A stretch of DNA of 64,000 bases, from the NCBI GenBank assembly GCA_002869165.1, contig PKTK01000013.1:50124-114123 (forward strand). Reading direction: 5' to 3'. Shown here piece by piece: positions 3,845 to 48,635 of the stretch. The notes beneath the pieces are model-generated. The model did not search any database, had not been told where the DNA came from, and worked only from the letters and a program-made list of their open reading frames with translations. Numbering within the stretch: the first letter of the stretch is position 1; every line of letters starts with the position of its first letter. Source of the stretch: Candidatus Parcubacteria bacterium (GTDB lineage Bacteria; Patescibacteriota; Patescibacteriia; Patescibacteriales; UBA12075). Position numbers and translations under genes: made by a program.

Positions 3845-3918
3845 GGATGCATAGCTCAGTTGGCTAGAGCACCTCGTTTACACCGAGGGGGTCCGGGGTT
3901 CGAGTCCCTGTGCATCCA
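3845..3918 (+). tRNA. tRNA-Val (anticodon TAC)
   Basis: Acceptor stem GGATGCA/TGCATCC. D-arm GCTC...GAGC. The anticodon loop is TTTACAC in stem CCTCG/CGAGG. The T-arm is CGGGG-TTCGAGT-CCCTG. CCA is not encoded. Confidence 0.85.
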
Positions 3919-3929
3919 CAACTAAAAAG

Positions 3930-3955
3930 CTACACCGGAAGGTGTAGTTTTTTTG
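3930..3955 (+). terminator. Intrinsic terminator after tRNA-Val
   Basis: Stem CTACACC-GGAA-GGTGTAG followed by T7. Confidence 0.7.
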
Positions 3956-3982
3956 TTGCGGATGCATTGGGAAATCGAACCC
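3955..3982 (-). repeat. Inverted degenerate copy of the tRNA-Val 3' half
   Basis: The reverse complement, GGTTCGATTTCCCAATGCATCCGCAAC, compares with the tRNA 3' end GGTTCGAGTCCCTGTGCATCCACAAC. Confidence 0.7.
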
Positions 3983-4074
3983 CGGATTTGGATGGATCAA
4001 AAGAAGTTCAAAGTTAGTGGCTTGAAAGAAATAACATAAACTACATAATAAACGTATTCGACTGAAGTCGGTGA

Positions 4075-4095
4075 GAGTCCCTGTGCATCCACAAC
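4075..4095 (+). repeat. Direct 21-nt copy of the tRNA-Val 3' end (att-like)
   Basis: GAGTCCCTGTGCATCCACAAC is identical to 3902-3922. The identity starts inside the T-loop. Confidence 0.8.
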
Positions 4096-4099
4096 AAAA

Positions 4100-4130
4100 A
4101 GAACACTCTGAAAAAAGGGTGTTCTTTTTA
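4100..4130 (+). terminator. Intrinsic terminator-like hairpin after the tRNA-Val 3' copy
   Basis: Stem AGAACAC...GTGTTCT followed by TTTTTA. Confidence 0.55.
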
Positions 4131-9617: not shown

Positions 9618-9666
9618 TTTGAGGTCTGGACCGGATTCGAAGAGGCGGAAGCCTCACACCCTCAAG
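9618..9666 (-). repeat. Direct copy of the tRNA-Cys 3' end, fused to a 19-nt arm shared with the tRNA-Lys locus
   Basis: Positions 9618-9641 are identical to 9791-9814 (tRNA-Cys T-loop to 3' end plus flank). Positions 9633-9660 are the reverse complement of GGTGTGAGGCTTCCGCCTCTTCGAATCC, also found at 37532-37559 and 37710-37737. A shorter 12-nt copy is at 9561-9572. Confidence 0.8.
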
Positions 9667-9738
9667 AATTTTAATATGATCTTAAAAAATACTGTTTTAA
9701 CATTGGCATCATTTTTTTATCTATTTTTACATCTCAGG

Positions 9739-9762
9739 CACCGGTTCGAACCGATCCAGACT
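9739..9762 (+). repeat. Inverted degenerate copy of the tRNA-Cys 3' half
   Basis: CACCGGTTCGAACCGATCCAGACT compares with the tRNA sense sequence CACCGGTTCGAATCCGGTCCAGACC. Confidence 0.65.
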
Positions 9763-9786
9763 AAAAAAAGAACCCCATCTGGGGTT
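9763..9786 (-). terminator. Intrinsic terminator after tRNA-Cys
   Basis: The minus-strand sense reads AACCCC-AGAT-GGGGTT followed by CTTTTTTT. Confidence 0.7.
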
Positions 9787-9794
9787 ATTTTTTG

Positions 9795-9866
9795 AGGTCT
9801 GGACCGGATTCGAACCGGTGAATAACGGTTTTGCAAACCGTGGCCTTACCACTTGGCGACCAGACC
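9795..9866 (-). tRNA. tRNA-Cys (anticodon GCA)
   Basis: The reverse complement reads GGTCTGG..ACGGT-TTGCAAA-ACCGT..CCGGTTCGAATCCGG..CCAGACC-T. The cloverleaf is consistent. CCA is not encoded. Confidence 0.85.
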
Positions 9867-22989: not shown

Positions 22990-24543
22990 TTAATACGTAT
23001 AAGTTGCTATTATTTCATCACTTGGATTTAATAAATATGCTTCATCACCTGAATTGTTCCAAATCGCCGAGTAAGTATGACACCAATACAGCTCTTGGCT
23101 AGTATCCTCTCCACAGCCAGTAAATACTTTAAAAGACTCTCCTGAAGCAATACCAAAATCATCAAATACATACGACTTGCCACTTCCATCTCTAATTTCA
23201 TAATCATCCATACTCAAAGCCTCACCATTGTTTTGTATCTCTATATATTCATCCTCCTCTTTATCACTAGCTACCCCATCATAAAATATATTTACAATTT
23301 CAAGTTCTGACGAACTACTTGCCTTCACCAAACTATTCATTCCACCAAATTCCAAGCAAGCACCATCTGCCCATATACCTTTTTTGTTTTCCTTGGCCCG
23401 AGCTTCGGCTAATTTGTAAATCCCCGCATATTTACTAGCTACATTATAAGTATACTCGTTAGCATATCCTTCTTCTATCATAAGCTCAGCAAAATTTTTC
23501 CCATTAGGCATTATTACGTGCCTGAGAAGTCTGTCGTATTTATCTAAATTTCCTTGTGTTTCATCAAACTCAAGTTCTACATAAGTTCCTTCTAATATTG
23601 TCTTGGCGTATTCACTGGCTTCTTCACCAAAGCACTCTTCTGCTCGATATGAACTCATCACCTCTGGTGTATCCATACCTATTACCCTTACACTAGTCTT
23701 CTTACCATTTTCATAAACCAAAAAGGTGTCACCATCAACCACATAGTCAACATAGTACATTCTATTCTCTATAACTGGCTCTACAATATCCTTAGCTCCC
23801 TTTTGTGACTCAAGAAGATCAATAATTTTTACTCCTGTGGTATCAGCTGTTCCAAAACCCGTGATAGTCTCTCCGCCTATCACTGTGAAGGGCACACCTC
23901 GTATTTCTATACCATAAACTTCTTTAAATTTTTCCAAAATATCTCTATTAGCCTCATCATACCATGTCTCCATCATTACGACTTCGATATCATCTCTAGC
24001 AAGCACCAATTCATCCAAAAAGGCTATTTCATTATGACAATGCGGACAACCAGAACCGTAAAACAAATATAGTTTTTGTTTATCGTTATCAATTATTCGC
24101 TCCTCGCTCACTTGATAACTTGAGTTCATAACTATTTCAGAAAGATCACTTGTTCTGATACCAAGCCCCAGATCACGCATAACCTGAAAGGCATCCACTG
24201 GTTTTCCTAGATAATGCAAATGCAAGTCAAGCGGATTTATATAATAGGCCTCCCCAGAGGCTTCTACTCGCAAAACTATTCTTCCCGATAAACTAGCAGG
24301 AGCAATCATTTTCCAGGAAGAAAAATCCTTTTCATTTACCCCAAGCCCAAGCTCTCGCATTATCCTAAAAGCATCTTGAGGTCGAGACAAAAATATCCTC
24401 TCCTTGGTACTAGGCTCAACATACCATGCTTGCCCTTCGTCCTCAACTTGCAAAAGTATCCGTCCAGCCAAGCGTTCTCCCATATCCTGGGCTAAAACAG
24501 GTAAAGCAAAAAATATAAAAATAAATATTAATACTTTTTTCAT
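22990..24543 (-). CDS. Secreted multidomain protein: tandem N-terminal repeats, thioredoxin-like CPHC domain, staphylococcal-nuclease (SNase) domain, lamin-tail domain
   Basis: Has a signal peptide, then YGSGCPHCHNE. The SNase motif is VVDGDTFLV...VRVIGMDTPE. The lamin-tail-domain motif is EDEYIEIQNNGEALSMDDYEIRDG. Confidence 0.75.
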   Translation of the reverse strand: MKKVLIFIFIFFALPVLAQDMGERLAGRILLQVEDEGQAWYVEPSTKERIFLSRPQDAFRIMRELGLGVNEKDFSSWKMIAPASLSGRIVLRVEASGEAYYINPLDLHLHYLGKPVDAFQVMRDLGLGIRTSDLSEIVMNSSYQVSEERIIDNDKQKLYLFYGSGCPHCHNEIAFLDELVLARDDIEVVMMETWYDEANRDILEKFKEVYGIEIRGVPFTVIGGETITGFGTADTTGVKIIDLLESQKGAKDIVEPVIENRMYYVDYVVDGDTFLVYENGKKTSVRVIGMDTPEVMSSYRAEECFGEEASEYAKTILEGTYVELEFDETQGNLDKYDRLLRHVIMPNGKNFAELMIEEGYANEYTYNVASKYAGIYKLAEARAKENKKGIWADGACLEFGGMNSLVKASSSSELEIVNIFYDGVASDKEEDEYIEIQNNGEALSMDDYEIRDGSGKSYVFDDFGIASGESFKVFTGCGEDTSQELYWCHTYSAIWNNSGDEAYLLNPSDEIIATYTY

Positions 24544-24572
24544 AAATAAATTTATTTACTAACTATTATTTA

Positions 24573-27500
24573 TTATACATTCTTAAAAAATAAAAATCTA
24601 ATTAAATAAATAAAAGCTACTAAAAATATTACCCCCACGATAATCAAACCATAAATTTTCAACCTATTGTCTTTTCTTTTTTTAAGTGTCCATTCTTTTT
24701 TTTCAATACTTTCACCAAGCACTTGTCCTTCATTATCGCCTCGCTCAATTAATTCTATTTCATTTTCATTTCTTAGTTGCAAACGTCTGCCTGAACTAGA
24801 ATTCTGCACTATTCCTCTAGCCAGAACTCTATCTCCCAAAGAAAAAGAAGACAAAAAATCGTTACTAGCATTTTTTAAATACACTTGTGTTTCGCCACTT
24901 TCATCACCCAAATATACTTTATCAGTTTGAATATCAATGATTTCTGCTTCTACCTGTGCCAAGCTTGCTTCTTGAATTTTGTCAATTTCCGAACAATTAC
25001 ATTTTTGAGTCTTTAACTCCAATCCATTTTTTATTACTTGAATATTACTTGCTTCCTTGGTTTTGACCCGCAACTCGCTACCTGTTTTAGACACTTCTCC
25101 ATTCACCTCTATCAAATCTCCAATTTCCAAATCTGGAAAATCTTTGTAATAACTATAAATTTGCAAACCAAGAGAGTCATCAGATATATAAAAATATTGA
25201 CTAGACAATTCTCCAGGCAGAGAGCTTACTATTCCTTGAATAGCTATTTTTTTTGATAAATATTCTTGATTTAAATCCTTAATATTTATATTATTTTTCA
25301 GTTCAAACTGACTTGTACCTTGTGCCAAAAAAACACTTCCTCCTTTTTTTTCTGAAACAGATGAATCAACAAGAATTTTATTCAAATTACTAGGACCATA
25401 GACTTCCCCCTCTTTGGTTTTTCCATATTCTTGAAAATCTATCACTTCACCGTTTGGGGCAATTAGCCTGACCTCATCATCAAAATTATTAAGTGCTATA
25501 CCAGAATCCTCTCGACTAAGATTGTAATATTCACCCGCCTTCAAAAAAACATTATCGGTAAACTTGTATGGCCTTGAACCTCCTTCCATATCATCCACAC
25601 TCCAATTCAAAAGATTAATATCATTTTCACTACTATTAAAAAGTTTGATATATTCTCCTTCTTGGTCACTGCCAACTGGATTAGGCAAGAATTCATCAAT
25701 CTTAATATCAGAAAAATCTATTTGCAGATCAGCGCTAGTTGCTTGACTCAAGTCTAAACTCCAATCAAAAACAACCAGTTCTTTTTCAATTTGTTTATCA
25801 AATTCACCATCATTTACAACCAAAGTGACTAAATATTTTCCTGATTTGCCGAAAATATGATCAGGATTGGGAAATTCAGAATAAAAACCATCATCAAAAT
25901 CCCAGAAATATTTAAGTTCGTCCTGATCAGGATCAATCGTATCACTACTATCAAAAATAACTGGCATGCCAACGAATAAATTCTCAACTACTGAAAAATC
26001 AGGAATTGGTTCTCGATTGGGTAATTCTATCTCATTTGTTTCACCTGGTGTCAAATTCGTACTCCAACTACAATCAAGATTAGGCAACACCCCCAAAAGC
26101 TCTAAATCTTTAGTCAAGCAATTCAGACTCATCCCCTCACTTGAATTTTTGTAATTCAAACTATCAATTGCCTTTTTTTTATCGATCTGAAACAAATAAA
26201 CCGTATCACCAGAATTATTCAAAGCTAAATTCGTCTCATCTTTAAAAAAAACTAAATAATCATGTGAATCAATATAAAGATACCTCTCAATTCTATAATT
26301 ATACTCACTCTCATCACCAAGTTGCCAACCATAAAGGTTGATTGCTTCTTCGCTTCTGTTATAAAGCTCAATATATTCTCTATCTGCATCCACTCCATCT
26401 GGATCAGGATATATCTCGCTTATAAATATAGCATTTTTTATATCTGCACTTGTTTTTAACTCATCTTCGCTAATAACATTACTTTTACCCTTGGTCACCT
26501 GACTGGTAACACAAAAATCAACTGAATCATTGCCAGTATTTCTGCCATCTTCTATACGAGCCAAAGAAAATGGATCCTTGGCTACAATTGCATTGTCACT
26601 AGGGTCCTCATCGCTCCAATCTCCATAACACAAAGAGTCAATATATACTCCACTTGAATCACGAAGAATAACAATATCCCCGGTGTTATTTAAATTTCCT
26701 TTTAGTTTTTCAATAACCAAAAACCTTTCACTCCCACTTCTACCAATAGTTCCTGTAAGGGATGTTTTGGCTCCACTTCCTTCTTCCAAAAACCAACCAC
26801 TCAAATCTATATCCTCTATACTTGTATTAAAAAGCTCGACCCATTCATTCTCACCATCGATCGGGTCGCTTACAATTTCGTTTATTACTACAATCCCAGA
26901 AAAATTTATTTCTTCATCACTCGATTTTATTTTGGTATTTTCTCCATTCTCCTCCCTAACAACTTGGTTGTCTGTACTAGTGGCCTCGTTTTCCTCACTC
27001 TGCTCCAAGTCATTACTAGAGTTATCTTCTTCTTGATTACTTTCATTGTTTGAATTATTAATAATATTTTCTTGACCTGGTGTGCCACCAACATCATCAC
27101 TGGTCACCCAAACACCACCAGAATTTAAAGACATTGTTTGTTTGGTGTCATTGTCTCCAGATGACCACGCGGTGCTAGCATTTATTTCATCAATTATCTC
27201 CCCTGAAGAATTTTTTAAAATTAAATACTCTCCGGTGTTGCCCAAAGCACCGGTATAGATTAACTGGGCCTCAACATCATCTACGCTAAAATCATCTGTT
27301 CGCTCAAGTAAATAATATGAATTGACATCAACAAAACCACTTAACTCAATTTCTGGGCTTCCGTCTTGCGCTACTAGCGTCAACCCGCTTAGATCAATAA
27401 CAACTGAGCCAGGGTTATATAGTTCTATCCATTCATCAGAACTTGAATACTCTGTACCCATCCAGGCAATCTCATTTATTCGTAATGAATCAGAGTTAGC

Positions 27501-27596
27501 CTGAACTATAGCCCCAAAATAAAAAATTCCTGAGATTAAAACCCCAAGAATCATGAATAATTTAATAAAATCAATGTTTCCTCCTTGTTTGTTCAT
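24573..27596 (-). CDS. Large surface protein with four lamin-tail domains, a PKD domain, OB-fold-like modules and a C-terminal TM anchor
   Basis: The lamin-tail motif recurs four times: INEI..DEWIELYN, NEWVELFN, REYIELYN and GEYIKLFN. The PKD motif is YFWDFDDG...GKYLVTLVVNDG. The C-terminal helix is IYGLIIVGVIFLVAFIYLI. Confidence 0.7.
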   Translation of the reverse strand: MNKQGGNIDFIKLFMILGVLISGIFYFGAIVQANSDSLRINEIAWMGTEYSSSDEWIELYNPGSVVIDLSGLTLVAQDGSPEIELSGFVDVNSYYLLERTDDFSVDDVEAQLIYTGALGNTGEYLILKNSSGEIIDEINASTAWSSGDNDTKQTMSLNSGGVWVTSDDVGGTPGQENIINNSNNESNQEEDNSSNDLEQSEENEATSTDNQVVREENGENTKIKSSDEEINFSGIVVINEIVSDPIDGENEWVELFNTSIEDIDLSGWFLEEGSGAKTSLTGTIGRSGSERFLVIEKLKGNLNNTGDIVILRDSSGVYIDSLCYGDWSDEDPSDNAIVAKDPFSLARIEDGRNTGNDSVDFCVTSQVTKGKSNVISEDELKTSADIKNAIFISEIYPDPDGVDADREYIELYNRSEEAINLYGWQLGDESEYNYRIERYLYIDSHDYLVFFKDETNLALNNSGDTVYLFQIDKKKAIDSLNYKNSSEGMSLNCLTKDLELLGVLPNLDCSWSTNLTPGETNEIELPNREPIPDFSVVENLFVGMPVIFDSSDTIDPDQDELKYFWDFDDGFYSEFPNPDHIFGKSGKYLVTLVVNDGEFDKQIEKELVVFDWSLDLSQATSADLQIDFSDIKIDEFLPNPVGSDQEGEYIKLFNSSENDINLLNWSVDDMEGGSRPYKFTDNVFLKAGEYYNLSREDSGIALNNFDDEVRLIAPNGEVIDFQEYGKTKEGEVYGPSNLNKILVDSSVSEKKGGSVFLAQGTSQFELKNNINIKDLNQEYLSKKIAIQGIVSSLPGELSSQYFYISDDSLGLQIYSYYKDFPDLEIGDLIEVNGEVSKTGSELRVKTKEASNIQVIKNGLELKTQKCNCSEIDKIQEASLAQVEAEIIDIQTDKVYLGDESGETQVYLKNASNDFLSSFSLGDRVLARGIVQNSSSGRRLQLRNENEIELIERGDNEGQVLGESIEKKEWTLKKRKDNRLKIYGLIIVGVIFLVAFIYLIRFLFFKNV

Positions 27597-39882: not shown

Positions 39883-41970
39883 TTATAAATGGAGTATTAA
39901 TTTAATTGTATCATAGTCAACTGTTTCTCCCAATTCTTCATAAATTGGTTTCAACTTTTCGTCTCCTACTTTTTTAATAGCTTTTTTAACTGCCTTGATA
40001 TCAGCATCATTTACTAATTTCTTGATTTCTGTTTTTGGCAATACTTTTTTGTCTACTAAGTAAGAAATATGGTCTACTACAGTAGATTTTTTGATTCCTC
40101 TTTCACTAGCAATCTCATCAAGACTTAGACCGCGGTTATAAAGCTCTAATGTTTCTAATTGAGTTAGCTTGGTGCCAAGCATGGATCCGCCTGATTTGCT
40201 TTCAATTTTTTCTTTTCGTTTTTTTATATATTCACTTCTTTCTTCTGAGTGATAAGAGTTCAAACATACATCACATCTTCCACACTTACCGCTCATTTCT
40301 TCACCAAAATAATCAAGCATATACTTCTGTCGACATATTGTCTCATATACATAATCTTCCATTCGGTCTAACTTCTCATAAGCTTCTCGCAATTTTTTCT
40401 TGAGCCCGAGATCCTCTAATTTTATTTTCTTTGGTTCTTCTTTTTGTAGTATCCTAATCTCACTTCCTCGAAAAGGAGGTTTGTACTCGAACAAATTTTG
40501 CTCAACCATTTTTTTAATAACCCGTAAAAGCGAATCCTTCTTTATTTCCAGGGTATCAGCTGTTAATTCAAGATTGATGTCCCAACCATTTTCTAGTTCA
40601 CTGGTGTATTTATCTTTGAGCTTAGAAAATATTTCTTTTTGTTTTTTTGCTCTGGGACTTATCTGATCCATTATGTAATCAACATTCTTGAGTGCTTTAA
40701 TATAAGCTGAACCTGTTTTTTCACTAGAACGAGAAACCAGACCAAGTTTTTCCAAAATCTTAATACTTGTACCAATCGCCATATCAGGTACTGTTCCCAA
40801 TAACATCTCGGCGATTTCAGCATAAGTGATCATTACGATGTCAGTTTCGTAAGAAAGCAAGATATTATAAATCTCTCTAATTATTTCAGGTGGCGGATTA
40901 TCCCCTTTGATAAAAAATTCATGCAAATGCCTGTCACGCGAATTAAAAAGAAGCATGCACAAACTAGCCTTACCATCTCGACCTGCCCTACCTGCTTCTT
41001 GATAATATGCCTCAACTGTTCCTGGCATATCATAATGCACTACATAACGCACATCCCTCTTGTCAATTCCCAAGCCAAAAGCATTGGTAGCGACGATTAC
41101 TCGAACATCAGACTGAAGAAATCTATTCTGTACCCACTTTCGATCATTTGCTTCCATGCCAGCATGGTATGATACTGCTTCAATATTGTTTTCTAATAAA
41201 ATTTGCGTCAATTCATCTACTCTTGATCTGGTGCTAGCATAAACTATACCCGTTTCCGTAGGAAAAGAATTTACCACATCCATGACTAGTTGTGGTTTTC
41301 TTGCTTCCTTGGCCTGAACTACACCAAACTGCAAATTTGGTCTCCTAAAACCAGTTATTACTCTTTGTGGATTTTTCAAATCAAGTTGTTTTATAATATC
41401 TTCCTTTACTTCAGGTGTAGCAGTAGCTGTAAGTGCTACCACGGTGGGATTGTTTAAGTGATCAATAGCAAATTTGAGCCTGGTGTAACTAGGACGAAAA
41501 TCATGACCCCATTGACTAATACAATGCGCTTCATCAACGGCAAATAAACCAACTTTAATATTTTTCAAACTATCTAAAAAATGCTGATTATAGAATCTTT
41601 CAGGGGCAATATAAAGCAATTTAAAATTTCCCAGTTTAACCCCTTCTAGTCTCTTTCTTGTTTCATCCAGACTGATAGATGAATTAATAAATGTTGCTGG
41701 AATACCAATATCAGTCAGTGAATCGACCTGATCCTTCATGAGAGCGATTAAGGGAGAAATTACAATAGTAACACCTTCCATTACCAAGGCTGGCAGTTGA
41801 TAACAAAGCGACTTTCCACCTCCAGTTGGCATGATCACTAAAGTGTCATTTTGCGTTAACAAATTATCAATAACGTTTTCCTGCCCAGGTCGAAAATCAT
41901 CATAACCCCAATGAAGTTTAAGTAATTCTTTAGCTTGTTGTTTTTTGTCATTTATATTCATAATACTCAT
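39883..41970 (-). CDS. recQ: ATP-dependent DNA helicase RecQ (C-terminal HTH-like module in place of a clear HRDC domain)
   Basis: Contains [37 protein letters not shown], and the zinc-binding CGRCDVC. I placed the start at the ATG at 41970; the tracked GTG at 42003 adds a hydrophobic leader. Confidence 0.85.
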
Positions 41971-42141
41971 ATTAGCAATAATAAAAAATATTAGCAATTT
42001 CACTTGAAATTAGCTAAAATTATTGCTAAAATAGTATAACATTAATTATAGATTCTTGAGACTATTAAGACCATTGGGATCCTTGCTCAATCTTAAGGGT
42101 TCCAAAAATCACAAATATCTCAAGAATCCTAACGCAATTAT

Positions 42142-43800
42142 ATGTCTAGTGATATCCAAATAGCTCAGAGAGCTAAAATGCAAAAAATAAAGGAGATAGC
42201 TAAAAAAATTGGCATTAATGAAGATGAATTAGAGCTTTTTGGTGATTATAAGGCAAAATTGTCTGATAAGCTCTGGAATAGAGTTAAAGACAAACCAGAT
42301 GGGAAACTAGTACTAGTAACAGCTATTAATCCAACTCCAGCTGGAGAAGGAAAATCAACCACTATGGTAGGGCTCGGTCAAGCCATGTGGAAAATAGGTC
42401 AAAAATCAATTGTGGCAATTCGTGAACCAAGCATGGGTCCAGTTTTTGGTATCAAAGGTGGTGCTGCTGGGGGTGGACATGCACAAGTTGTTCCTATGGA
42501 AGATATCAACCTTCACTTTACAGGTGACATGCATGCCATAAGCTCTGCTAACAATCTTCTCTCAGCTATGATTGATAACCATATTCAACAAGGAAATGAA
42601 CTAGGAATTGATACTCGACAAATTACCTGGAAACGTTGCGTTGATTTGAATGACAGAAGCTTGCGTAATGTTGTAGTGGGTCTTGGTGGCAAAATGCAAG
42701 GAGTGCCAAGAGAAGATGGTTTTAATATTACTGTTGCTTCAGAAATCATGGCTATTCTTTGTTTGGCTAATGATTTGGATGATTTAAAAAATCGACTAGC
42801 AAATATTATTGTCGGCTATAATCATGACGGAGAAAAAATTACTGCCAAGGACCTACGCGCTGAAGGTTCTATGGCTGTGATCCTGAAAGATGCTATCAAG
42901 CCCAATCTAGTTCAAACTTTAGAAAATACTCCAGCCATCATGCATGGTGGGCCTTTTGCTAATATTGCTCACGGTTGTAATTCTGTCCAAGCCACACGTC
43001 TAGCGCTCAAATTGTCTGATATTGTCTTAACCGAAGCTGGTTTTGGAGCTGATCTTGGGGCGGAAAAATTCCTAAACATCAAATGCAATCTTGCCAAGCT
43101 AAAACCTAATGCTATAGTTTTGGTAGCCACACTTAGAGCACTTGCTTATAATGGCAAAAACAATGAAGACAAAACCAGACTTGAGTCTATAAAAAAAGGG
43201 ATAGTAAATCTAGAAAGGCATATTGAAAATTTACAAAAATTTGGTGTACCTGTAGTAGTTACTCTAAACGCTTTTACCGAAGACGAATCAGAAGAAATCG
43301 AATTTGTAAAAACTTTTTGCGAAAAACTCGGTGCTGACTTTGAAATATCCGAAGTTTGGGAAAAAGGTGGTGAGGGCGGGGTCAAGCTAGCAAAAAAACT
43401 AGTTACTACGCTTGAAAATAAAACATCAAATTATGCGCCACTTTATGACATTAACTTAAGTATTCAAAATAAAATTGAAATAATTGCAAAAGAAATATAC
43501 CGAGCAGAAAAAGTAAACTTCTCTCAAAAAGCACTTAAAAACATTGAACAAATCAAAAAACTAGAAAAAGACAAGTTACCGATATGTATGGCCAAAACCC
43601 AATATTCTTTTTCTGACGACCCCAAGAAACTAGGTGCTCCTAAAAACTTTGAAATCACCATCAGAGAACTTAGATTATCGGCTGGGGCTGGATTTATTGT
43701 AGCTCTAGCTGGTGATATTATGACCATGCCCGGGCTACCAAAAAAACCAGCCGCTGAAGAAATTGGTATTAACAATGAAATAATTGAAGGATTATTTTAA
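42142..43800 (+). CDS. fhs: Formate--tetrahydrofolate ligase
   Basis: Contains [34 protein letters not shown], and the C-terminal [14 protein letters not shown]. Confidence 0.95.
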
Positions 43801-43813
43801 TTTATTATTTCAT

Positions 43814-43838
43814 CATCCCTGCCTCAACAGGAATGACA
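43814..43838. repeat. Family A short hairpin unit
   Basis: CATCCCTGCCTCAACAGGAATGACA, located between fhs and folD. Confidence 0.5.
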
Positions 43839-43848
43839 AAAAATAATC

Positions 43849-44685
43849 ATGACAAACATAATAGACGGTAAAGCCGTTGCACAAAAAATTAAAGATCAAG
43901 TGAAAAATGAGATAAAAGAAAATAATCTCGACCCAGGACTCGCAGTTGTTTTAGTTGGTGACAATCAAGCTTCTCAGGTATATGTTAAAAATAAAAAAAA
44001 GGCTTGTGAATATGCTGGTATAAAATCTTTTTCTTTTAATCTGCCTAAAGAAACAGACGAAGAAGAACTTTTAAAATTAATTGAAAAATTAAACAAAGAC
44101 AAAGCAATAGATGGTATCTTGGTACAGCTCCCTTTACCAAAACATATCAATAGTACAAAAATATTACTGGCAATCAATCCTGACAAGGATGTCGATGGTT
44201 TTCATCCTGTAAACGTTGGCAAGCTTTACACTGGAGCTAAAGGGCTTAAGCCATGTACACCCGCAGGTATAATAGAACTTCTAAAAAATTATAATATTAA
44301 AATCTCAGGCAAACATGCTGTTGTTTTAGGTAGAAGCAATATTGTAGGTAAACCTGTAGCACAAATGCTACTTGAAAACAATGCTACAGTTACGATTTGT
44401 CATTCCCGCACAAAAGCTCTAGAAAAAATAACCAAAAAAGCGGATATTCTAATAGCTGCTATTGGAAAAGCTAAATTTGTAAAAAAAGAGATGCTAAAAA
44501 AATATGTGATAGTTGTTGATGTTGGCATGAATCGTGATGAAAATAACAAGCTCTGTGGTGATGTTGACTATGAGCAAGTCAAAAAAGTCTCCTCCTACAT
44601 CACACCTGTTCCCGGAGGAGTTGGCCCCATGACAATTGCCATGCTTATAAAAAATTGTTTAGAAGCACACAAAAACCTACATTAA
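43849..44685 (+). CDS. folD: Bifunctional methylenetetrahydrofolate dehydrogenase/methenyl-THF cyclohydrolase
   Basis: Contains [54 protein letters not shown] and [10 protein letters not shown]. Confidence 0.95.
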
Positions 44686-44688
44686 AAA

Positions 44689-44716
44689 AACTCTTGGATG
44701 AACCAAGAGTTTTTTA
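44689..44716. terminator. Bidirectional terminator between convergent folD and the folD-N-like gene
   Basis: ACTCTTGG-ATGAA-CCAAGAGT is flanked by A7 and T5. Confidence 0.7.
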
Positions 44717-44729
44717 TTATTTAAAAATA

Positions 44730-45197
44730 TTATTGACTATTTTTTTCTTTATCTTTCATTATATCTATACAATACCTAAAAAGCTTAGCTATTTTTATTT
44801 CTTCATTATTATTTTCAAGACTAGAATTTAAATTTTTACTTGTCTCAATTGTAGAAATAATTTTTTCATAATCAAATTCTTCTGGGACTTCCTCGTATAG
44901 ATAAATACCATCGATCAACTCATCCTCATTTAAACACTCTGTCATTGCTTCGATTTCTTCCATGTCAGAATCAAGAGGACAAATATAACTATGAATATCA
45001 ATACCCACTTTCTTTGCTTCTTTTTCAAGATTGGCTAATTTGTTTTTGCATTCCATTTCATCTCCAATAATAAGCACTGCCATATTTGGCCTAAGCTGAG
45101 CATCCCCAGCCTTGCCTTTATTTATAGCTACTATGTCTTTTACTATCTCATCTTTTATTATTGTAGCTTCATTAGCTTGGGGATTTTTTTTATTCAT
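44730..45197 (-). CDS. FolD N-terminal (catalytic) domain-like protein lacking the NAD(P)-binding domain
   Basis: PNMAVLIIGDEMECKNKLANLEKEAKKVGIDIHSYICPLDSDMEEIEAMTECLNEDELIDGIYLY parallels FolD LAVILVGD..S.VYV..K.KA.E..GI......L......EL...I..LN.D..V.GILVQ. It ends before the Rossmann domain. Confidence 0.45.
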   Translation of the reverse strand: MNKKNPQANEATIIKDEIVKDIVAINKGKAGDAQLRPNMAVLIIGDEMECKNKLANLEKEAKKVGIDIHSYICPLDSDMEEIEAMTECLNEDELIDGIYLYEEVPEEFDYEKIISTIETSKNLNSSLENNNEEIKIAKLFRYCIDIMKDKEKNSQ

Positions 45198-45825
45198 TTA
45201 TATAAGTTAAAAGTTTGTTAATGATTTTTTCCATTGACTGTGGGTGAGGAAGTAATACAAAATATGAATGAAATAATTTATCAGCTTCTTCCATTTTGGT
45301 ATTAAATATTAAAGCAGTACTAATGTCTTTTACTTTCTCTCTAATTTGCCCAACTACAGATCCTGGTAGGTCTTCTTTGAGTTCTGGAGGAGTTAGCAAC
45401 ACTTTTGATTCAACAAAGTCCCCCAATGCGTTTGCATAAGCAGATACAATAATATTGCCAACCTCCATAATTGCAGATTTCTCCATATCACCAAGCTTCT
45501 TTGAAGATCCAGCCTCTCTACCCATCAAAATATCAGACAAAGCAAGCGCTGATGGTTGAGAAAAAATATAGAGAATAGACCCAGAGAACTCATCGGTTAA
45601 CTCCAAATAAACTCCAGTTGCTTCAATAGAATCATCTATGAAACCAGCTAAATGTAATTTAAAATCATCAATTGGCGCAAAACGAATCTCGGGTACAGAA
45701 ATATTAATACGCTTATTTATCATTTGTGAAACAGCAGTAGCTGCATGACTAGAGCCAATATTACTAGTTTCTTTCAAGATATCAATCTCTAAATCATTTA
45801 GCTTTTTTACAATATCTTTATCCAT
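45190..45825 (-). CDS. cheC: CheC-type CheY-P phosphatase family protein (both active-site motifs intact)
   Basis: There are two exact matches to D/S-x3-E-x2-N-x22-P. The first is DILKETSN followed by 22 aa then P (..INISVP). The second is SAIMEVGN followed by 22 aa then P (..VLLTPP). At 211 aa its size is typical of CheC. Confidence 0.7.
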   Translation of the reverse strand: MDKDIVKKLNDLEIDILKETSNIGSSHAATAVSQMINKRINISVPEIRFAPIDDFKLHLAGFIDDSIEATGVYLELTDEFSGSILYIFSQPSALALSDILMGREAGSSKKLGDMEKSAIMEVGNIIVSAYANALGDFVESKVLLTPPELKEDLPGSVVGQIREKVKDISTALIFNTKMEEADKLFHSYFVLLPHPQSMEKIINKLLTYINE

Positions 45826-45829
45826 ATAT

Positions 45830-47071
45830 TTAATTTATAGGTAAAAGAAATTCCTTACATATTTCCCTAACCTCTTTTTTTATAATATCTATATTATCAT
45901 TATTTAATGCTCTATCAATTAAATCTGCTAATTTTTTAATTTCTTTTTCCTTCATGCCTCTGCTTGTTAGGGCTGGTGTGCCCAAGCGAATTCCACTTGG
46001 ATTCATTGGTGGTTTCAAATCATTGGGAATCGTAGAGCGAGAAACAGAGATACCAACTTTTTCTAGCAAAACCTCAGCATCTTTACCTCCAATATTTTTA
46101 TCTGACAAATCTACTACCACTAAATGGTTGTCTGTTCCACCAGACACTATTTGATAACCTTTTTCAATCAAACATTTACTTAACTCCTGAGCATTCAAAA
46201 TAACTTGCTTGGCGTATTCTACAAAATCATCCTGCAAAGCCTCTCCAAAAGCTACTGCCTTAGCAGCAGTAATATGATCATGCGGTCCACCCTGCATACC
46301 CGGGAAAACTGCCCTATCAACTTGTTTGGAAAATTTTTCTTTACACATTATCATCGCCCCTCTTGGACCTCTTAAAGTTTTGTGAGTTGTTGTTGAAACT
46401 ACATCAAATATTGGTACAGGGTTTTTCATTTGCTTACCAGCTATTAAACCAGCTGTGTGAGCTATATCTGCAAATGTATAAGCTCCTACTTCATCAGCTA
46501 TTTCTTTGAAACGTTCCCACTCAATCTCACGAGAGTAGGCTGAAAATCCAGCAACTATCATTTTTGGTTTTTCTTTACGAGCAATTTCTGCCACCTTGTC
46601 CATATCAATAAAACCTGTTTCTGGGTCTACTTCATATTGAACAAAGTCATACAACATACCTGAAAAATTCACCGGATGACCATGAGACAAATGTCCTCCA
46701 TGATCTAGCTTCAATCCCAACACCTTATCTCCAGGACGCAAAAATGCAAAATATACTGCCGCATTAGCCGGACTACCTGAAAGTGCTTGTACGTTTACAT
46801 GTTCAGCCTGAAAGAGTTTCTTGGCGCGCTTGATTGCTAGCTCTTCAACATCATCAATTAGTGCATTACCACCATAATATCTTTTACCAGGATATCCTTC
46901 TGAATATTTGTTTGTCAAAACCGAAGCCATAGCTTCCATAACAGCACTAGATACATAGTTTTCAGAAGCAATTAACTCAAGTTCGTTCTTCTGTCTTTCC
47001 TCTTCTTTTTGGATTGCTACAAAAACTTCTTTGTCTTGTTTTTCTAAATTTTTATAATCCATATTAGCCAA
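45830..47071 (-). CDS. glyA: Serine hydroxymethyltransferase
   Basis: Contains LIASENYVS, the PLP-lysine region VVSTTTHKTLRGPRGAMI, and GSPANAAVY. Confidence 0.95.
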   Translation of the reverse strand: MANMDYKNLEKQDKEVFVAIQKEEERQKNELELIASENYVSSAVMEAMASVLTNKYSEGYPGKRYYGGNALIDDVEELAIKRAKKLFQAEHVNVQALSGSPANAAVYFAFLRPGDKVLGLKLDHGGHLSHGHPVNFSGMLYDFVQYEVDPETGFIDMDKVAEIARKEKPKMIVAGFSAYSREIEWERFKEIADEVGAYTFADIAHTAGLIAGKQMKNPVPIFDVVSTTTHKTLRGPRGAMIMCKEKFSKQVDRAVFPGMQGGPHDHITAAKAVAFGEALQDDFVEYAKQVILNAQELSKCLIEKGYQIVSGGTDNHLVVVDLSDKNIGGKDAEVLLEKVGISVSRSTIPNDLKPPMNPSGIRLGTPALTSRGMKEKEIKKLADLIDRALNNDNIDIIKKEVREICKEFLLPIN

Positions 47072-47222
47072 TTAATAGCACGAAAACGAGACAAACAAAG
47101 TCCCGTTTATTACTAATATTTTAGCTTTTTTTGAGTTTTGTGTCAAAAGATTTTAAATAACTATATTGTCATATTGCTAAATTGTTATATTTTGTAATCA
47201 CACTCCTCCAGTTAATAAAATA

Positions 47223-47612
47223 TTACTTGATATATTCAAAATATCTTAAAGTTGGAATAATATTTGGGGCTATATCAGTAGGCAAATCATTCACATTAAA
47301 CCACTTCCACTCTATTACTTCTTTTCCTGCTTTTATTTTACCTTCAAAATCTGCTAAATAATGCGCCAACAACACATCTTTTTCCTCGTCTCCAAGTTTT
47401 TTAACATGTATAATAAAAGGTTTTTTGTTTAATATTTTTATTTCCGCTCCCATTTCTTCTCTAAATTCTCTTGTGGCCGTTTCTTCTAAATTTTCATTTT
47501 TCTCTACTTTTCCACCACAAAATTTCCAAAAATCATCACTACCTGATTTATTTAGAAGTACTTTTTTATCTCTAACAATAACAGGCCCTGAGGCAATAAT
47601 TACTTTTTTCAT
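47223..47612 (-). CDS. NUDIX hydrolase
   Basis: The Nudix box is GGKVEKNENLEETATREFREEMG. Confidence 0.8.
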   Translation of the reverse strand: MKKVIIASGPVIVRDKKVLLNKSGSDDFWKFCGGKVEKNENLEETATREFREEMGAEIKILNKKPFIIHVKKLGDEEKDVLLAHYLADFEGKIKAGKEVIEWKWFNVNDLPTDIAPNIIPTLRYFEYIK

Positions 47613-47693
47613 ATTTTTGATTATACTCTATAATAATTATAACAAATAAACATTAAAAAAACACTCGTTTTTTAAAAACGAGTGTTATAGACT

Positions 47694-48635
47694 TTAAATA
47701 AACAGACTGCTTACACTATCCTCCTTATAAATCCTGTCTATTGCTTCAGCCACGATGTCTGAAGCTGAAACAACTTTTATGTTTGGGCACTTCTTTGCTT
47801 TTCCTTTCAAGGGAATGGTGTTTAAGACCATCAAAGATTTTATTTTTGATTTTCTCAATCTTTGAATGGCCGGGCCTGACAAAACAGGATGAGCACAGCA
47901 AGCATGAACTTCTTTGGCGCCACATTTTAACAATTCATTTGCGCCACCACACAAAGTACCTGCTGTATCCACCATATCATCACAGAGTATAGCAATTTTT
48001 CCCTTCACATCACCAACAACATTTATTTCTTCTATTGAATTTGGCTTGTCTCGACGTTTGTCAATGATAGCAAATCCAACATCAAGTGCTTTAGCGAAAT
48101 GTCTTGTACGTTCAACGCCTCCGGCATCAGGAGATACCATAATAATTTTTTTCTTTCGAAATTTCTTTTTAATGTGAGGTATAAATACAGTTGATGAATA
48201 CAAATGATCTACTGGGATATTAAAAAATCCTTGAATCTGGCCAGCATGTAGATCAACGCTTAAAACTCTTCTAACCCCAACTGCGGTTAGCATATCTGCA
48301 ACTGCTTTGGCTGAAATAGGTACTCGAGGGGCTTTCTTTTGGTCCTGTCTAGCATAACCATAGTACGGCATTACAGCCGTAATTCTTCTCGTTGAAGCTC
48401 TCCTTAGGGCATCTACCATAATAAGAAGCTCCATAAGATTGTCATTTACTGGTGAACATGTTGGCTGAACAATAAAAACATCACAACCCCTAACATTTTC
48501 ACCAATTTCTACAAATATCTCACCATCACTGAATTTTTTTACAGTTGCTTTTCCTAAAGGAATTTTTAAATACTCTACAACTTCTTTTGCCATTTCTTTG
48601 TTTGCATTCCCAGAAAAAACTTTAATCTTCTTCAC
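47694..48635 (-). CDS. prs: Ribose-phosphate pyrophosphokinase
   Basis: Contains [10 protein letters not shown], the PRPP loop DDMVDTAGT, and [13 protein letters not shown] chose the GTG at 48635, preceded by AAGGGGGA; the longer tracked ORF overlaps the elp3-like gene. Confidence 0.9.

What the first reader, a model, noticed from the sequence alone, without database searches (positions are those of the whole stretch)
45190..45825. A fully motif-intact CheC phosphatase embedded in the glyA one-carbon operon
The 211-aa ORF matches the CheC/CheX/FliY active-site pattern D/S-x3-E-x2-N-x22-P exactly, twice. The first match is DILKETSN followed by 22 aa then P. The second is SAIMEVGN followed by 22 aa then P. 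It starts 4 nt after the glyA stop codon and overlaps the next gene by 8 nt, so it is almost certainly co-transcribed with serine hydroxymethyltransferase. No other chemotaxis or flagellar gene lies in this 64-kb window, and such systems are generally sparse in reduced genomes. An intact CheY-P phosphatase in a metabolic operon suggests it may have been recruited to a different response regulator or a different role.
Basis: partly seen in the sequence, partly recalled or inferred. Interest (0 to 1): 0.6.

Follow-up and report, generated by a model that had tools for sequence, protein, structure and literature searches.

The report
CheC phosphatase fixed in glyA–folD operon
A gene for a chemotaxis-type phosphatase (CheC), closest to archaeal versions, sits permanently between two folate-metabolism genes in a small group of tiny non-motile bacteria, which suggests a signalling protein re-used outside chemotaxis.

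Summary
ORF 45190..45825 (minus strand, 211 aa) belongs to the CheC family: Pfam CheC scores 63.5 bits, the AF2 model (pLDDT 87) matches T. maritima CheC at TM 0.83-0.85, and both E/N active-site motifs are intact. It lies 4 nt after glyA and overlaps by 8 nt a 155-aa protein that consists only of a catalytically dead FolD N-domain.

The host is a Parcubacteria (CPR) MAG. I found no receiver, che or flagellar gene in about 83 kb of contiguous sequence.

The placement is not an accident. Seven further metagenomic or MAG loci carry glyA–CheC(–CheC)–FolD. Synonymous sites are saturated while dN stays as low as for glyA, and the catalytic helices are the best-conserved part of the protein. None of the other 160+ CheC loci examined has glyA or folD nearby; most sit in che operons.

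The closest relatives (46-54% identity) are the third CheC, next to cheD, in Thermoplasmatota-type archaeal che operons. That points to an old archaea-to-CPR transfer.

My best reading is a retained receiver aspartyl-phosphate phosphatase, co-expressed with the serine/one-carbon module and acting on an unidentified response regulator. A role as a FolD- or SHMT-binding partner is the main rival. I rate it a new variant of a known kind, of moderate interest.

The parts
47118..47146 (-). Best sigma-70-like promoter match (TTGACA-17-TAAAAT, 11/12) upstream of glyA. Candidate operon promoter.
   Evidence: This is a consensus match only, with no functional evidence.
45830..47071 (-). glyA, serine hydroxymethyltransferase. 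The likely true start is the ATG at 47062.
   Evidence: Pfam SHMT 544 bits. 80% and 71% identical to the gene upstream of CheC in L010 and L012. Start inferred and the MDYKNL/MEYKNL N-termini of L172/L173.
45190..45825 (-). CheC-family protein, 211 aa (PLX26700.1, annotated 'hypothetical protein C0583_06750').
   Evidence: Pfam CheC 63.5 bits. PDB 1XKR/2F9Z phmmer E 6e-27, full length. AF2 pLDDT 87.4. Foldseek 1XKR E 2.7e-18, TM 0.83/0.85.
45691..45783 (-). Active-site motif 1: D15-x3-E19-x2-N22-x22-P45, on helix alpha1 (model H11-36).
   Evidence: E19 and N22 are invariant in all 10 CPR-clade sequences and in the 65 archaeal relatives.
45385..45477 (-). Active-site motif 2: S117-x3-E121-x2-N124-x22-P147, on helix alpha1' (model H113-137).
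   Evidence: Intact in all single-copy CPR members and in paralogue C2. Degenerate (N to E) only in paralogue C1 of the two-copy loci L172/L173.
44730..45197 (-). FolD N-domain-only protein, 155 aa. It has no NAD(P)-binding domain. The catalytic S-x2-Y-x3-K, the Q of VQLPLP and D-x-D-G-F are all lost. Its start overlaps the CheC stop by 8 nt.
   Evidence: Pfam THF_DHG_CYH 47.6 bits only. Alignments. Homologues of 157-169 aa: P0239-P0242. dN 0.36 vs dS about 2 against L010. Closer to the operonic FolD of L012/L172/L173 (35-40%) than to the window's own FolD (28%).
44685..44715 (.). Palindromic terminator-like hairpin (13-bp stem flanked by A and T runs) between the convergent folD(+) and FolD-N(-) genes. 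Candidate bidirectional terminator closing the operon.
   Evidence: Pattern match only.
43849..44685 (+). Full-length folD (278 aa, catalytic motifs intact), convergent to the operon. It probably made the operonic folD redundant.
   Evidence: Pfam, both domains. Motifs SQVYVKNK / VQLPLP / DKDVDGF.
42142..43800 (+). fhs, formate-tetrahydrofolate ligase. It completes the serine to formate one-carbon module.
   Evidence: Pfam FTHFS 881 bits.
47223..47612 (-). Nudix hydrolase. Part of the syntenic block shared with L172/L173 (Elp3-like / Nudix / glyA / CheC / FolD / RecQ / methyltransferase).
39883..42003 (-). RecQ helicase. It marks the downstream edge of the shared syntenic block. In L172/L173 it follows FolD, directly in L173 and after one Y1 transposase-like gene in L172.

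Best explanation
**What is shown.** The ORF encodes a real, folded CheC-type protein. Its lineage clusters with the third, cheD-adjacent CheC of Thermoplasmatota-type archaeal chemotaxis operons. It was probably acquired by an ancestor of a narrow Parcubacteria/Patescibacteria lineage. There it became a fixed member of the glyA–cheC(–cheC)–folD transcription unit.

**What is inferred.** It most likely still works as CheC proteins do. Helices alpha1 and alpha1' would dock on a phosphorylated receiver domain. The conserved Glu/Asn pair would then enter the receiver's active site and accelerate hydrolysis of the aspartyl-phosphate. No chemotaxis machinery is nearby, so the substrate would be one of the few non-chemotaxis response regulators of the cell, encoded elsewhere. 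Co-transcription with SHMT and FolD (the serine to glycine + formate + ATP/NADPH route, completed here by fhs) would then tie the lifetime of that regulator's phosphorylated state to expression of the one-carbon module.

**Status of the steps.**
- Shown: family, fold, motif integrity, conserved operon position, purifying selection, archaeal affinity.
- Inferred: phosphatase activity, a receiver-domain target, the physiological coupling.
For: **Family and fold.**

**Catalytic residues are selected.**
- E19, N22 and E121 are conserved in both the CPR clade and 65 archaeal relatives. Overall identity within the CPR clade is only 39-74% between lineages.
- alpha1 and alpha1' hold the densest run of positions conserved in both groups.
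- In the two-copy loci, one paralogue keeps both sites. The other has lost only site 2 (N to E). That is the pattern expected if catalysis is what selection maintains.

**Purifying selection.** dS is saturated (>1.8 or undefined). CheC dN is 0.047-0.079 between L172 and L173, against 0.079 for glyA. CheC dN/dS is about 0.09 for window vs L010.

**Fixed position.**
- Eight loci carry glyA–CheC(–CheC)–FolD, with 3-36 nt spacers or 8-nt overlaps. In L011 the contig ends before glyA.
- None of the other loci fetched through CheC homology has glyA or folD within the flank.
- Most of those loci have cheA, cheD or cheY next door.

**No che partner locally.**

**Patescibacteria in general.** They lack flagellar and chemotaxis genes but keep about 5 two-component genes (PMC7137472).

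**Not a recent insertion.** GC of the gene (0.33-0.35) matches its surroundings.
Against: - No receiver-domain protein was found in about 83 kb around the gene or in the related loci. The proposed substrate is hypothetical.
- CheY-P phosphatase activity has not been confirmed even for archaeal CheC proteins (PMC7289035).
- Class I CheC is a weak phosphatase without CheD (established knowledge: Szurmant 2004; Chao 2006). No CheD is present here.
- Several alpha1 surface positions that are fixed in the archaeal relatives vary in the CPR clade (A16, Q18, T20, C25, S26). That could mean a changed partner, or relaxed constraint.
- A strict position between two folate enzymes, plus retention of a dead FolD N-domain translationally coupled to it, fits a direct metabolic partner at least as well as it fits a remote response regulator.
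Confidence: 0.45

Rival explanations
1. The CheC-like protein is a regulatory or scaffolding partner of the folate enzymes themselves: FolD, its N-domain, and/or SHMT. FolD would occupy the place that CheD has next to CheC3 in the archaeal operon. The CheC fold would bind the FolD N-domain. It could either modulate flux through SHMT/FolD or use folate status to switch its own activity. It need not be a response-regulator phosphatase at all.
For: - The gene is always immediately upstream of FolD or FolD-N, with 3-16 nt gaps or an 8-nt overlap, in all eight loci.
- In the window/L010/L011 branch FolD has lost its NAD(P) domain and catalytic residues. It is still kept as an ORF under purifying selection, with the 8-nt overlap conserved. 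A non-catalytic role for that domain is therefore likely.
- In the archaeal relatives the orthologous CheC is immediately followed by its binding partner CheD.
- CheC-fold proteins do bind metabolic enzymes elsewhere: the FliM–SpeE complex 5X0Z appears among the fold hits.
Against: - Scaffolding alone does not explain why the four catalytic E/N residues stay conserved. Non-catalytic CheC-fold proteins such as FliM have lost them (established knowledge).
- Four more FolD-N-only proteins (P0239-P0242) exist for which no matching close CheC was found in the protein search. FolD-N may therefore occur without CheC. Their context could not be checked.
- No interaction evidence of any kind was obtained.
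Confidence: 0.27
2. Ordinary chemotaxis CheC. The genome has a complete che (and motility) system elsewhere, and this copy merely happens to sit next to glyA.
For: Only about 83 kb of the genome could be inspected. NCBI's pipeline names the L172 homologue 'chemotaxis protein CheC'.
Against: - The same position between glyA and folD recurs in eight loci spanning 39-74% CheC identity. A chance displacement would not be conserved like that.
- Patescibacteria average 0.7 motility or chemotaxis genes per genome and lack flagella (PMC7137472).
- No che gene appears in any CPR locus fetched.
Confidence: 0.06
3. The protein hydrolyses a small-molecule acyl phosphate linked to the pathway, such as formyl phosphate (the Fhs intermediate) or acetyl phosphate, rather than a protein aspartyl-phosphate.
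For: Aspartyl-phosphate is an acyl phosphate. fhs lies in the same gene cluster in the window.
Against: - Established mechanism (CheX–CheY3 structure 3HZH; CheC, Park 2004): CheC and CheX only supply two side chains to the receiver's own active site, and they have no phosphate-binding or metal site of their own.
- fhs is absent from the related loci L172/L173.
Confidence: 0.04
4. Functionless passenger: a horizontally acquired gene that is neutrally retained.
For: None beyond the lack of an identified partner.
Against: - dN is far below dS, and dN equals or undercuts that of glyA.
- The ORF is intact in eight loci.
- Composition is fully ameliorated.
- After duplication the paralogues lost sites asymmetrically.
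Confidence: 0.03

Closest known systems
Thermotoga maritima / Bacillus subtilis CheC (class I CheY-P phosphatase; PDB 1XKR, 2F9Z)
   Same: Same Pfam family. Full-length alignment at 30% identity. Same pseudo-twofold alpha/beta fold (TM 0.83-0.85). Two D/S-x3-E-x2-N-x22-P sites on alpha1 and alpha1'.
   Different: Not in a che/fla operon. No cheD, cheY or cheA nearby. Scores below the NCBIfam equivalog cutoff (124.6 vs 250 bits). The host is a non-motile CPR bacterium.
Third CheC ('CheC3', cheD-adjacent) of Thermoplasmatota-type archaeal operons cheF-cheY-cheB-cheA-cheC-cheC-cheC-cheD-cheR (e.g. MEM0492968.1; L001, L004, L007, L013-L024)
   Same: Closest sequence relatives at 46-54% identity, against 24-29% to the other two CheCs of the same operons. 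They form one clade with 90% NJ bootstrap. Active-site helices are identical in pattern.
   Different: The archaeal proteins carry a C-terminal extension of about 15-25 residues that all CPR members lack. They are followed by cheD, whereas the CPR genes are followed by folD. Many positions fixed in the archaeal group vary in the CPR group.
FliY / CheX / FliM middle domain (other CheC-fold proteins)
   Same: Same fold superfamily: Foldseek E 1e-15 to 1e-7.
   Different: FliY has an added FliN domain. CheX has one site and forms a dimer. FliM lacks the catalytic residues. The ORF is clearly closest to CheC proper.
Stand-alone CheC homologues in other non-chemotaxis gene clusters (seen here, apparently undescribed)
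   Same: The Atribacteria-type cluster PFK–SurA-like–CheC–Memo–PD-(D/E)XK/GGDEF (L042, L045, L048, L078), and a CheC after mevalonate-pathway genes (L105). They too are CheC-family genes among metabolic genes with no che neighbour.
   Different: Different partner genes, and only 33-37% identity to the window protein. No glyA or folD link.

Membership tests
CheC family (Pfam PF04509; CheC/CheX/FliY phosphatases) | Profile match above the curated threshold | tested here: met
   PF04509 scores 63.5 bits vs cutoff 22, in two stretches. A profile built from the clade and searched against 1.84 billion representatives returns only CheC-like proteins.
CheC family (Pfam PF04509; CheC/CheX/FliY phosphatases) | Two pseudo-symmetric active sites D/S-x3-E-x2-N-x22-P | tested here: met
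   D15..E19..N22..P45 and S117..E121..N124..P147.
CheC family (Pfam PF04509; CheC/CheX/FliY phosphatases) | CheC fold, with the active-site residues on long helices alpha1 and alpha1' | tested here: met
   AF2 pLDDT 87.4, pTM 0.84, helices 11-36 and 113-137. Foldseek 1XKR E 2.7e-18, rmsd 2.5 Å over 202 columns.
CheC family (Pfam PF04509; CheC/CheX/FliY phosphatases) | Hydrolysis of CheY-P or another receiver aspartyl-phosphate | not testable with these tools
   Needs a biochemical assay. No candidate receiver was identified.
Chemotaxis CheC in the functional sense (equivalog of Thermotogales/Bacillus CheC) | NCBIfam equivalog score | tested here: not met
   NF041093 CheC_Thtogales scores 124.6 bits vs cutoff 250.
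Chemotaxis CheC in the functional sense (equivalog of Thermotogales/Bacillus CheC) | Genomic association with cheA/cheY/cheD/MCP or flagellar/archaellar genes | tested here: not met
   None in the 64-kb window, in +9.6 kb and +9.3 kb of flanks, or in L010-L012 and L172-L175.
Chemotaxis CheC in the functional sense (equivalog of Thermotogales/Bacillus CheC) | Binding to and activation by CheD | not testable with these tools
   No cheD was found near any CPR-clade member. The alpha2' region (residues about 150-170) has the lowest confidence among the structured parts of the model, and only P154 there is conserved in both groups.
FolD, bifunctional methylene-THF dehydrogenase/cyclohydrolase (for the downstream 155-aa ORF) | N-terminal catalytic domain PF00763 | tested here: met
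   47.6 bits vs cutoff 32.8. All Foldseek hits of the low-confidence model are FolD/MTHFD.
FolD, bifunctional methylene-THF dehydrogenase/cyclohydrolase (for the downstream 155-aa ORF) | NAD(P)-binding domain PF02882 | tested here: not met
   Absent. The ORF ends after the N-domain and is followed by only a 44-nt spacer.
FolD, bifunctional methylene-THF dehydrogenase/cyclohydrolase (for the downstream 155-aa ORF) | Catalytic S-x2-Y-x3-K, Q of VQLPLP, D of DVDGF | tested here: not met
   The window protein has CKNKLANL / LYEEVP / SKNLNSS. All seven complete FolD-N proteins aligned have lost both the Y and the K.

The most novel reading that the evidence does not exclude
In these Patescibacteria the CheC-type protein and the FolD N-domain form a dedicated pair, with FolD having replaced CheD as CheC's neighbour and partner. 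In the window lineage FolD has been reduced to a catalytically dead, possibly folate-binding module. The pair would act as a metabolite-gated phosphatase or adaptor. It would report one-carbon/folate status to a response regulator, or directly control SHMT/FolD flux. That would be a chemotaxis adaptation module rewired into a metabolic sensor in a non-motile, genome-reduced bacterium.
Probability: 0.12. Interest if true: 0.8.

Novelty: new variant of a known kind. Interest (0 to 1): 0.55.

Why it matters
CheC-type phosphatases are understood almost entirely as chemotaxis components. Here one is conserved under strong selection inside the serine/one-carbon operon of non-motile, genome-reduced CPR bacteria. 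Those organisms keep very few signalling genes, and this pathway is one of their few routes to ATP and reducing power.

If the protein still dephosphorylates a receiver, it identifies a minimal signalling circuit coupled to core metabolism in organisms that cannot yet be grown alone. If instead it binds FolD or SHMT, it is a new function for the CheC fold.

The locus also appears to record an archaea-to-CPR transfer. That transfer was followed by duplication, asymmetric loss of active sites, and conversion of FolD into a pseudoenzyme. This gives a compact, testable case of domestication.

The side observation that CheC genes sit in other metabolic clusters (Atribacteria-type, mevalonate-linked) suggests a wider, undescribed 'beyond chemotaxis' use of the family.

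Tried and rejected
- **Riboswitch or leader upstream of glyA.** Rfam at gathering score over the whole window found only 7 tRNAs. Rfam at E ≤ 1 over 44600-47750 found nothing.
- **Species-representative genomes.** The scan of 185,579 genomes found no glyA-linked member and not the window's own genome. It returned only archaeal and bacterial che-operon CheCs.
- **JGI metagenome contigs.** No additional glyA-linked member above 51% identity. The extra members came from a second protein search seeded with the profile hit P0078.
- **Literature.** No paper in the library mentions CheC together with Patescibacteria or Candidate Phyla Radiation. The two papers that mention CheC with SHMT and FolD are irrelevant proteomics lists. 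Muff & Ordal 2008 is not held.
- **Halobacterium interaction network.** I checked it for a CheC–folate-enzyme link. The folate-dependent PurNH binds CheA, not CheC, so it is at best a distant precedent.
- **FolD-N structure.** Only 5 sequences in the alignment, pLDDT 58. This was too weak for anything beyond confirming FolD-like hits.
- **CPR monophyly and direction of transfer.** The NJ bootstrap does not resolve CPR monophyly (37%). Single versus multiple transfers is left open.
- **dN/dS as a ratio.** Synonymous sites are saturated, so only dN << dS and the comparison with glyA are used.
- **Small-molecule acyl-phosphatase idea.** Rejected on mechanistic grounds.
Full report
**1. The observation**

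The ORF is real but lies on the minus strand (45825→45190, ATG, 211 aa).
- Pfam assigns it to CheC (PF04509, 63.5 bits, cutoff 22, two stretches). CheX gives a sub-threshold hit.
- NCBIfam's Thermotogales CheC model aligns end to end at 124.6 bits. That is family level, not equivalog level, since the cutoff is 250.
- Both copies of D/S-x3-E-x2-N-x22-P are exact: D15/E19/N22/P45 and S117/E121/N124/P147.
- In the six-frame translation of the whole window the pattern occurs three times, two of them in this ORF.
- The gene starts 4 nt after the glyA stop. Its last 8 nt (ATGAATAA) overlap the start of the next gene.
- An AlphaFold2 model built on 48 homologues is confident (pLDDT 87.4, pTM 0.84). 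The two motifs sit on long helices 11-36 and 113-137.
- Foldseek against the PDB puts T. maritima CheC first: 1XKR, E 2.7e-18, TM 0.83/0.85, rmsd 2.5 Å. The CheC–CheD complex 2F9Z comes next, then FliY, a haloarchaeal CheC-like protein, FliM and CheX.

**2. The surroundings**

Pfam annotation of the ORFs of at least 100 aa judged to be real genes gives a typical CPR/Patescibacteria gene set. It includes L19, GyrA, FtsK, S1, LspA, Lgt, TsaE, PolA, MurD, HolA, SMC, PhoH, RecQ, an Elp3-like radical-SAM/GNAT protein, PRPP synthase, Nudix, T4SS-type pilins and large LTD/PKD proteins.
- NCBI holds the identical protein as PLX26700.1, 'hypothetical protein C0583_06750 [Candidatus Parcubacteria bacterium]'.
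- No receiver domain and no chemotaxis or flagellar gene is present in the window. tblastn with archaeal CheF/Y/B/A/D/R, an archaellin and E. coli CheY finds nothing below E 0.2 except this ORF.
- Extending the sequence by 9.6 kb and 9.3 kb through other assemblies of the same organism adds none.
- Patescibacteria in general lack flagellar and chemotaxis genes and keep about five two-component genes (PMC7137472).

The local unit reads as follows:
- a promoter-like site at 47146-47118 (11/12 match);
- glyA;
- CheC;
- a 155-aa ORF;
- a palindromic terminator-like hairpin at 44685-44715.

Convergent to this unit are fhs and a complete folD. No Rfam family matches the region even at E ≤ 1. The GC content of the CheC gene equals that of its neighbours.

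**3. The downstream gene**

The 155-aa product matches only the N-terminal domain of FolD (PF00763, 47.6 bits).
- It lacks the NAD(P) domain.
- It has lost the S-x2-Y-x3-K motif (CKNKLANL), the Q of VQLPLP (LYEEVP) and DVDGF (SKNLNSS).
- It is not a one-off remnant. Homologues of 157-169 aa with the same losses exist: L011 and P0239-P0242. L010 carries a partial copy cut by the contig end.
- dN (0.36) is far below the saturated dS (about 2) against L010.
- It is closer to the FolD found downstream of CheC in relatives (35-40%) than to the window's own complete FolD (28%).
- Inferred history: the operonic folD became redundant once the fhs–folD pair was present. It was then reduced to a non-catalytic N-domain that is still maintained.

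**4. Related sequences**

The protein search gave two kinds of hits.

(a) A few proteins of 206-211 aa at 51-70% identity. Their contigs repeat the arrangement.
- L010: glyA (80% identical) – CheC – FolD-N.
- L011: CheC – FolD-N. The contig ends before glyA.
- L012: glyA (71%) – CheC – full FolD.

(b) About 60 proteins of about 225 aa at 44-50% identity. Each is the third of three tandem CheC genes, immediately before cheD. They sit in canonical archaeal operons cheF-cheY-cheB-cheA-cheC-cheC-cheC-cheD-cheR, next to archaellin genes.

Further searches extended both groups.
- In the species-representative genome collection the best hits (46-49%) are Thermoplasmatales, Thermoplasmatota and 'Methanobacteriota' MAGs.
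- A profile of the clade searched against 1.84 billion representatives finds only two representatives above 260 bits. One of them, P0078, is a new clade member.
- Seeding a second search with P0078 gave four more loci:
  - L174 and L175: glyA 3' end – CheC – FolD.
  - L172 (a Patescibacteria MAG, MFC1678324.1) and L173: Elp3-like – Nudix – glyA – CheC – CheC – FolD – RecQ – methyltransferase. L172 has an extra Y1 transposase-like gene between FolD and RecQ. L173 has a formyltransferase gene between RecQ and the methyltransferase.
- That is the same block as window 50235→39094. The window differs by having PRPP synthase and the inverted fhs–folD pair inserted, and one CheC fewer.
- Of the loci fetched through CheC homology, only these have glyA or folD within the flank. 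Most of the others have cheA, cheD or cheY next door.

**5. Evolution of the clade**

- All CPR sequences, including both paralogues of L172/L173, are 39-54% identical to archaeal CheC3. They are only 24-29% identical to CheC1 and CheC2 of the same archaeal operons.
- In an NJ tree, CPR plus archaeal CheC3 form a clade with 90% bootstrap, nested among other archaeal CheCs. The archaeal CheC3 group is monophyletic (95%). CPR monophyly is unresolved (37%).
- Paralogue C1 groups with the L012/L174/L175 sequences (83%). So the duplication probably predates the split of these lineages and was followed by differential loss.
- The CPR proteins lack the C-terminal extension of about 15-25 residues found in the archaeal group.
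- Chemotaxis context is the rule across the rest of the family. I therefore infer transfer from a Thermoplasmatota-like archaeon into a Parcubacteria ancestor. The direction is an inference.

**6. Selection and the active sites**

- Synonymous sites are saturated in every pair compared.
- Between L172 and L173, dN is 0.079 for C1 and 0.047 for C2, against 0.079 for glyA and 0.162 for FolD.
- Window vs L010 gives dN/dS of about 0.09 for CheC and 0.06 for glyA.
- Every single-copy member keeps both E/N pairs.
- In the two-copy loci, C2 keeps both pairs. C1 keeps site 1 but has N→E (and S→N/G, and E→D in L172) at site 2.
- Positions conserved in both the CPR and archaeal groups concentrate on alpha1 (D15, E19, N22-G24, H27-A31, S33), P45, alpha1' (E121, G123, V127, A129, Y130, A133, L134), P147 and the sheet core. 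Many positions fixed in the archaeal group vary in the CPR group.

**7. Mechanism**

Established knowledge comes from Park et al. 2004, Szurmant et al. 2004 and the CheX–CheY3 structure 3HZH. CheC and CheX dock on phosphorylated CheY and insert the conserved Glu and Asn into the receiver's active site to position the hydrolytic water. They have no phosphate site of their own.

These residues have no other known role. Here they are retained over deep divergence and decay only where a paralogue makes them redundant. The best-supported reading is therefore that the protein is still a receiver aspartyl-phosphate phosphatase. It would act on a non-chemotaxis response regulator encoded elsewhere, and its dosage would be tied to expression of the serine/one-carbon operon.

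The weak points:
- No receiver was found.
- Archaeal CheC activity itself is unconfirmed (PMC7289035).
- Class I CheC needs CheD for full activity.

The main rival is that the partner is FolD/FolD-N (or SHMT) itself. Three observations favour it:
- the invariant CheC→FolD adjacency;
- the translational coupling;
- the maintained dead FolD N-domain, which stands where cheD stands in the archaeal operon.

Against the rival, the conserved catalytic residues are unexplained by scaffolding. In addition, FolD-N-only proteins may exist without a matching CheC. The two readings are compatible if FolD-N modulates a phosphatase.

**8. Comparison and novelty**

Membership in the CheC family is met on profile, motif and fold. 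Membership in the functional class 'chemotaxis CheC' fails on context and on the equivalog score.

No paper in the searchable library links CheC with Patescibacteria/CPR or with SHMT/FolD.

CheC genes outside che operons are not unique to this clade.
- I saw an Atribacteria-type cluster PFK–SurA-like–CheC–Memo–PD-(D/E)XK/GGDEF in four loci.
- I saw a CheC after mevalonate-pathway genes.
- I saw a receiver–CheC fusion.

I therefore rate this a new variant of a known kind, not a new category. Interest is moderate. It is a clean, conserved, testable case of a chemotaxis component domesticated into core metabolism of a genome-reduced bacterium, with a companion pseudoenzyme.

Noticed in passing
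window 44730-45197 (-); also L010 1848-2240, L011 662-1141, proteins P0239-P0242: A small family of FolD N-domain-only proteins (155-169 aa). They have lost the catalytic Y/K and DxDGF motifs but are under purifying selection. They derive from the operonic FolD lineage, not from the window's own folD. Likely a pseudoenzyme with a non-catalytic role.
   Followed up: partly
L172 5865-7131 and L173 4467-5735: Two tandem CheC paralogues lie between glyA and folD. The downstream copy keeps both active sites. The upstream copy keeps site 1 and has a degenerate site 2 (N to E). The tree suggests the duplication predates the split of the CPR lineages, with differential loss afterwards.
   Followed up: partly
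L045 742-5934 (same cluster in L042, L048, L078): Atribacteria-type MAGs carry a CheC-family gene with intact-looking motifs. It sits in a tight cluster: phosphofructokinase – SurA-like – CheC – Memo – PD-(D/E)XK/GGDEF. No che gene lies within the flanks.
   Followed up: partly
L105 1486-4871; L145 5983-6639; L082 2956-3954: More CheC homologues away from che genes. One follows GHMP kinase, UbiD-like and PAC_bac genes (mevalonate-type context). One follows an HD-domain gene, an aminoacyl-tRNA synthetase and an acylphosphatase-like gene. One is a receiver–CheC fusion in a Thermoplasmatales MAG.
   Followed up: partly
window 47085-47115 (-): A 9-bp hairpin (AAACGGGAC-TTTGTTT-GTCTCGTTT) lies in the glyA leader, between the promoter-like site and the start codon. 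No Rfam match. Conservation in relatives was not checked.
   Followed up: no
window 47062-47071 (-): The mechanical ORF call starts glyA at a TTG (47071). The ATG at 47062 gives MDYKNLE..., which matches the N-termini of the L172/L173 SHMTs and is the likelier start.
   Followed up: yes
window 3902-4101 and 9618-9814 versus L176: The blastn segments of the window against another assembly of the same organism (ERZ794999 NODE_10, 330 kb) overlap by about 200 bp at two places near tRNA genes. This suggests short repeats or assembly differences.
   Followed up: no
window 42142-44685 (+) versus L172/L173: The fhs–folD pair is inserted in inverted orientation between FolD-N and RecQ. The relatives lack it: L172 has an IS200-like Y1 transposase gene between FolD and RecQ, and L173 goes straight from FolD to RecQ, followed by a formyltransferase gene. 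This rearrangement probably triggered the decay of the operonic folD.
   Followed up: partly
window 22990-27596 (-): Two adjacent large secreted-type proteins: a 1007-aa protein with 4 lamin-tail domains, PKD and an OB fold, and a 517-aa staphylococcal-nuclease–LTD protein. Looks like a surface nuclease/DNA-uptake arrangement, as in CPR bacteria.
   Followed up: no
literature, PMC3579733: In Halobacterium salinarum the folate-dependent enzyme PurNH binds statically to CheA. This is a reported but unexplained physical link between one-carbon-dependent metabolism and Che proteins. It does not involve CheC.
   Followed up: yes
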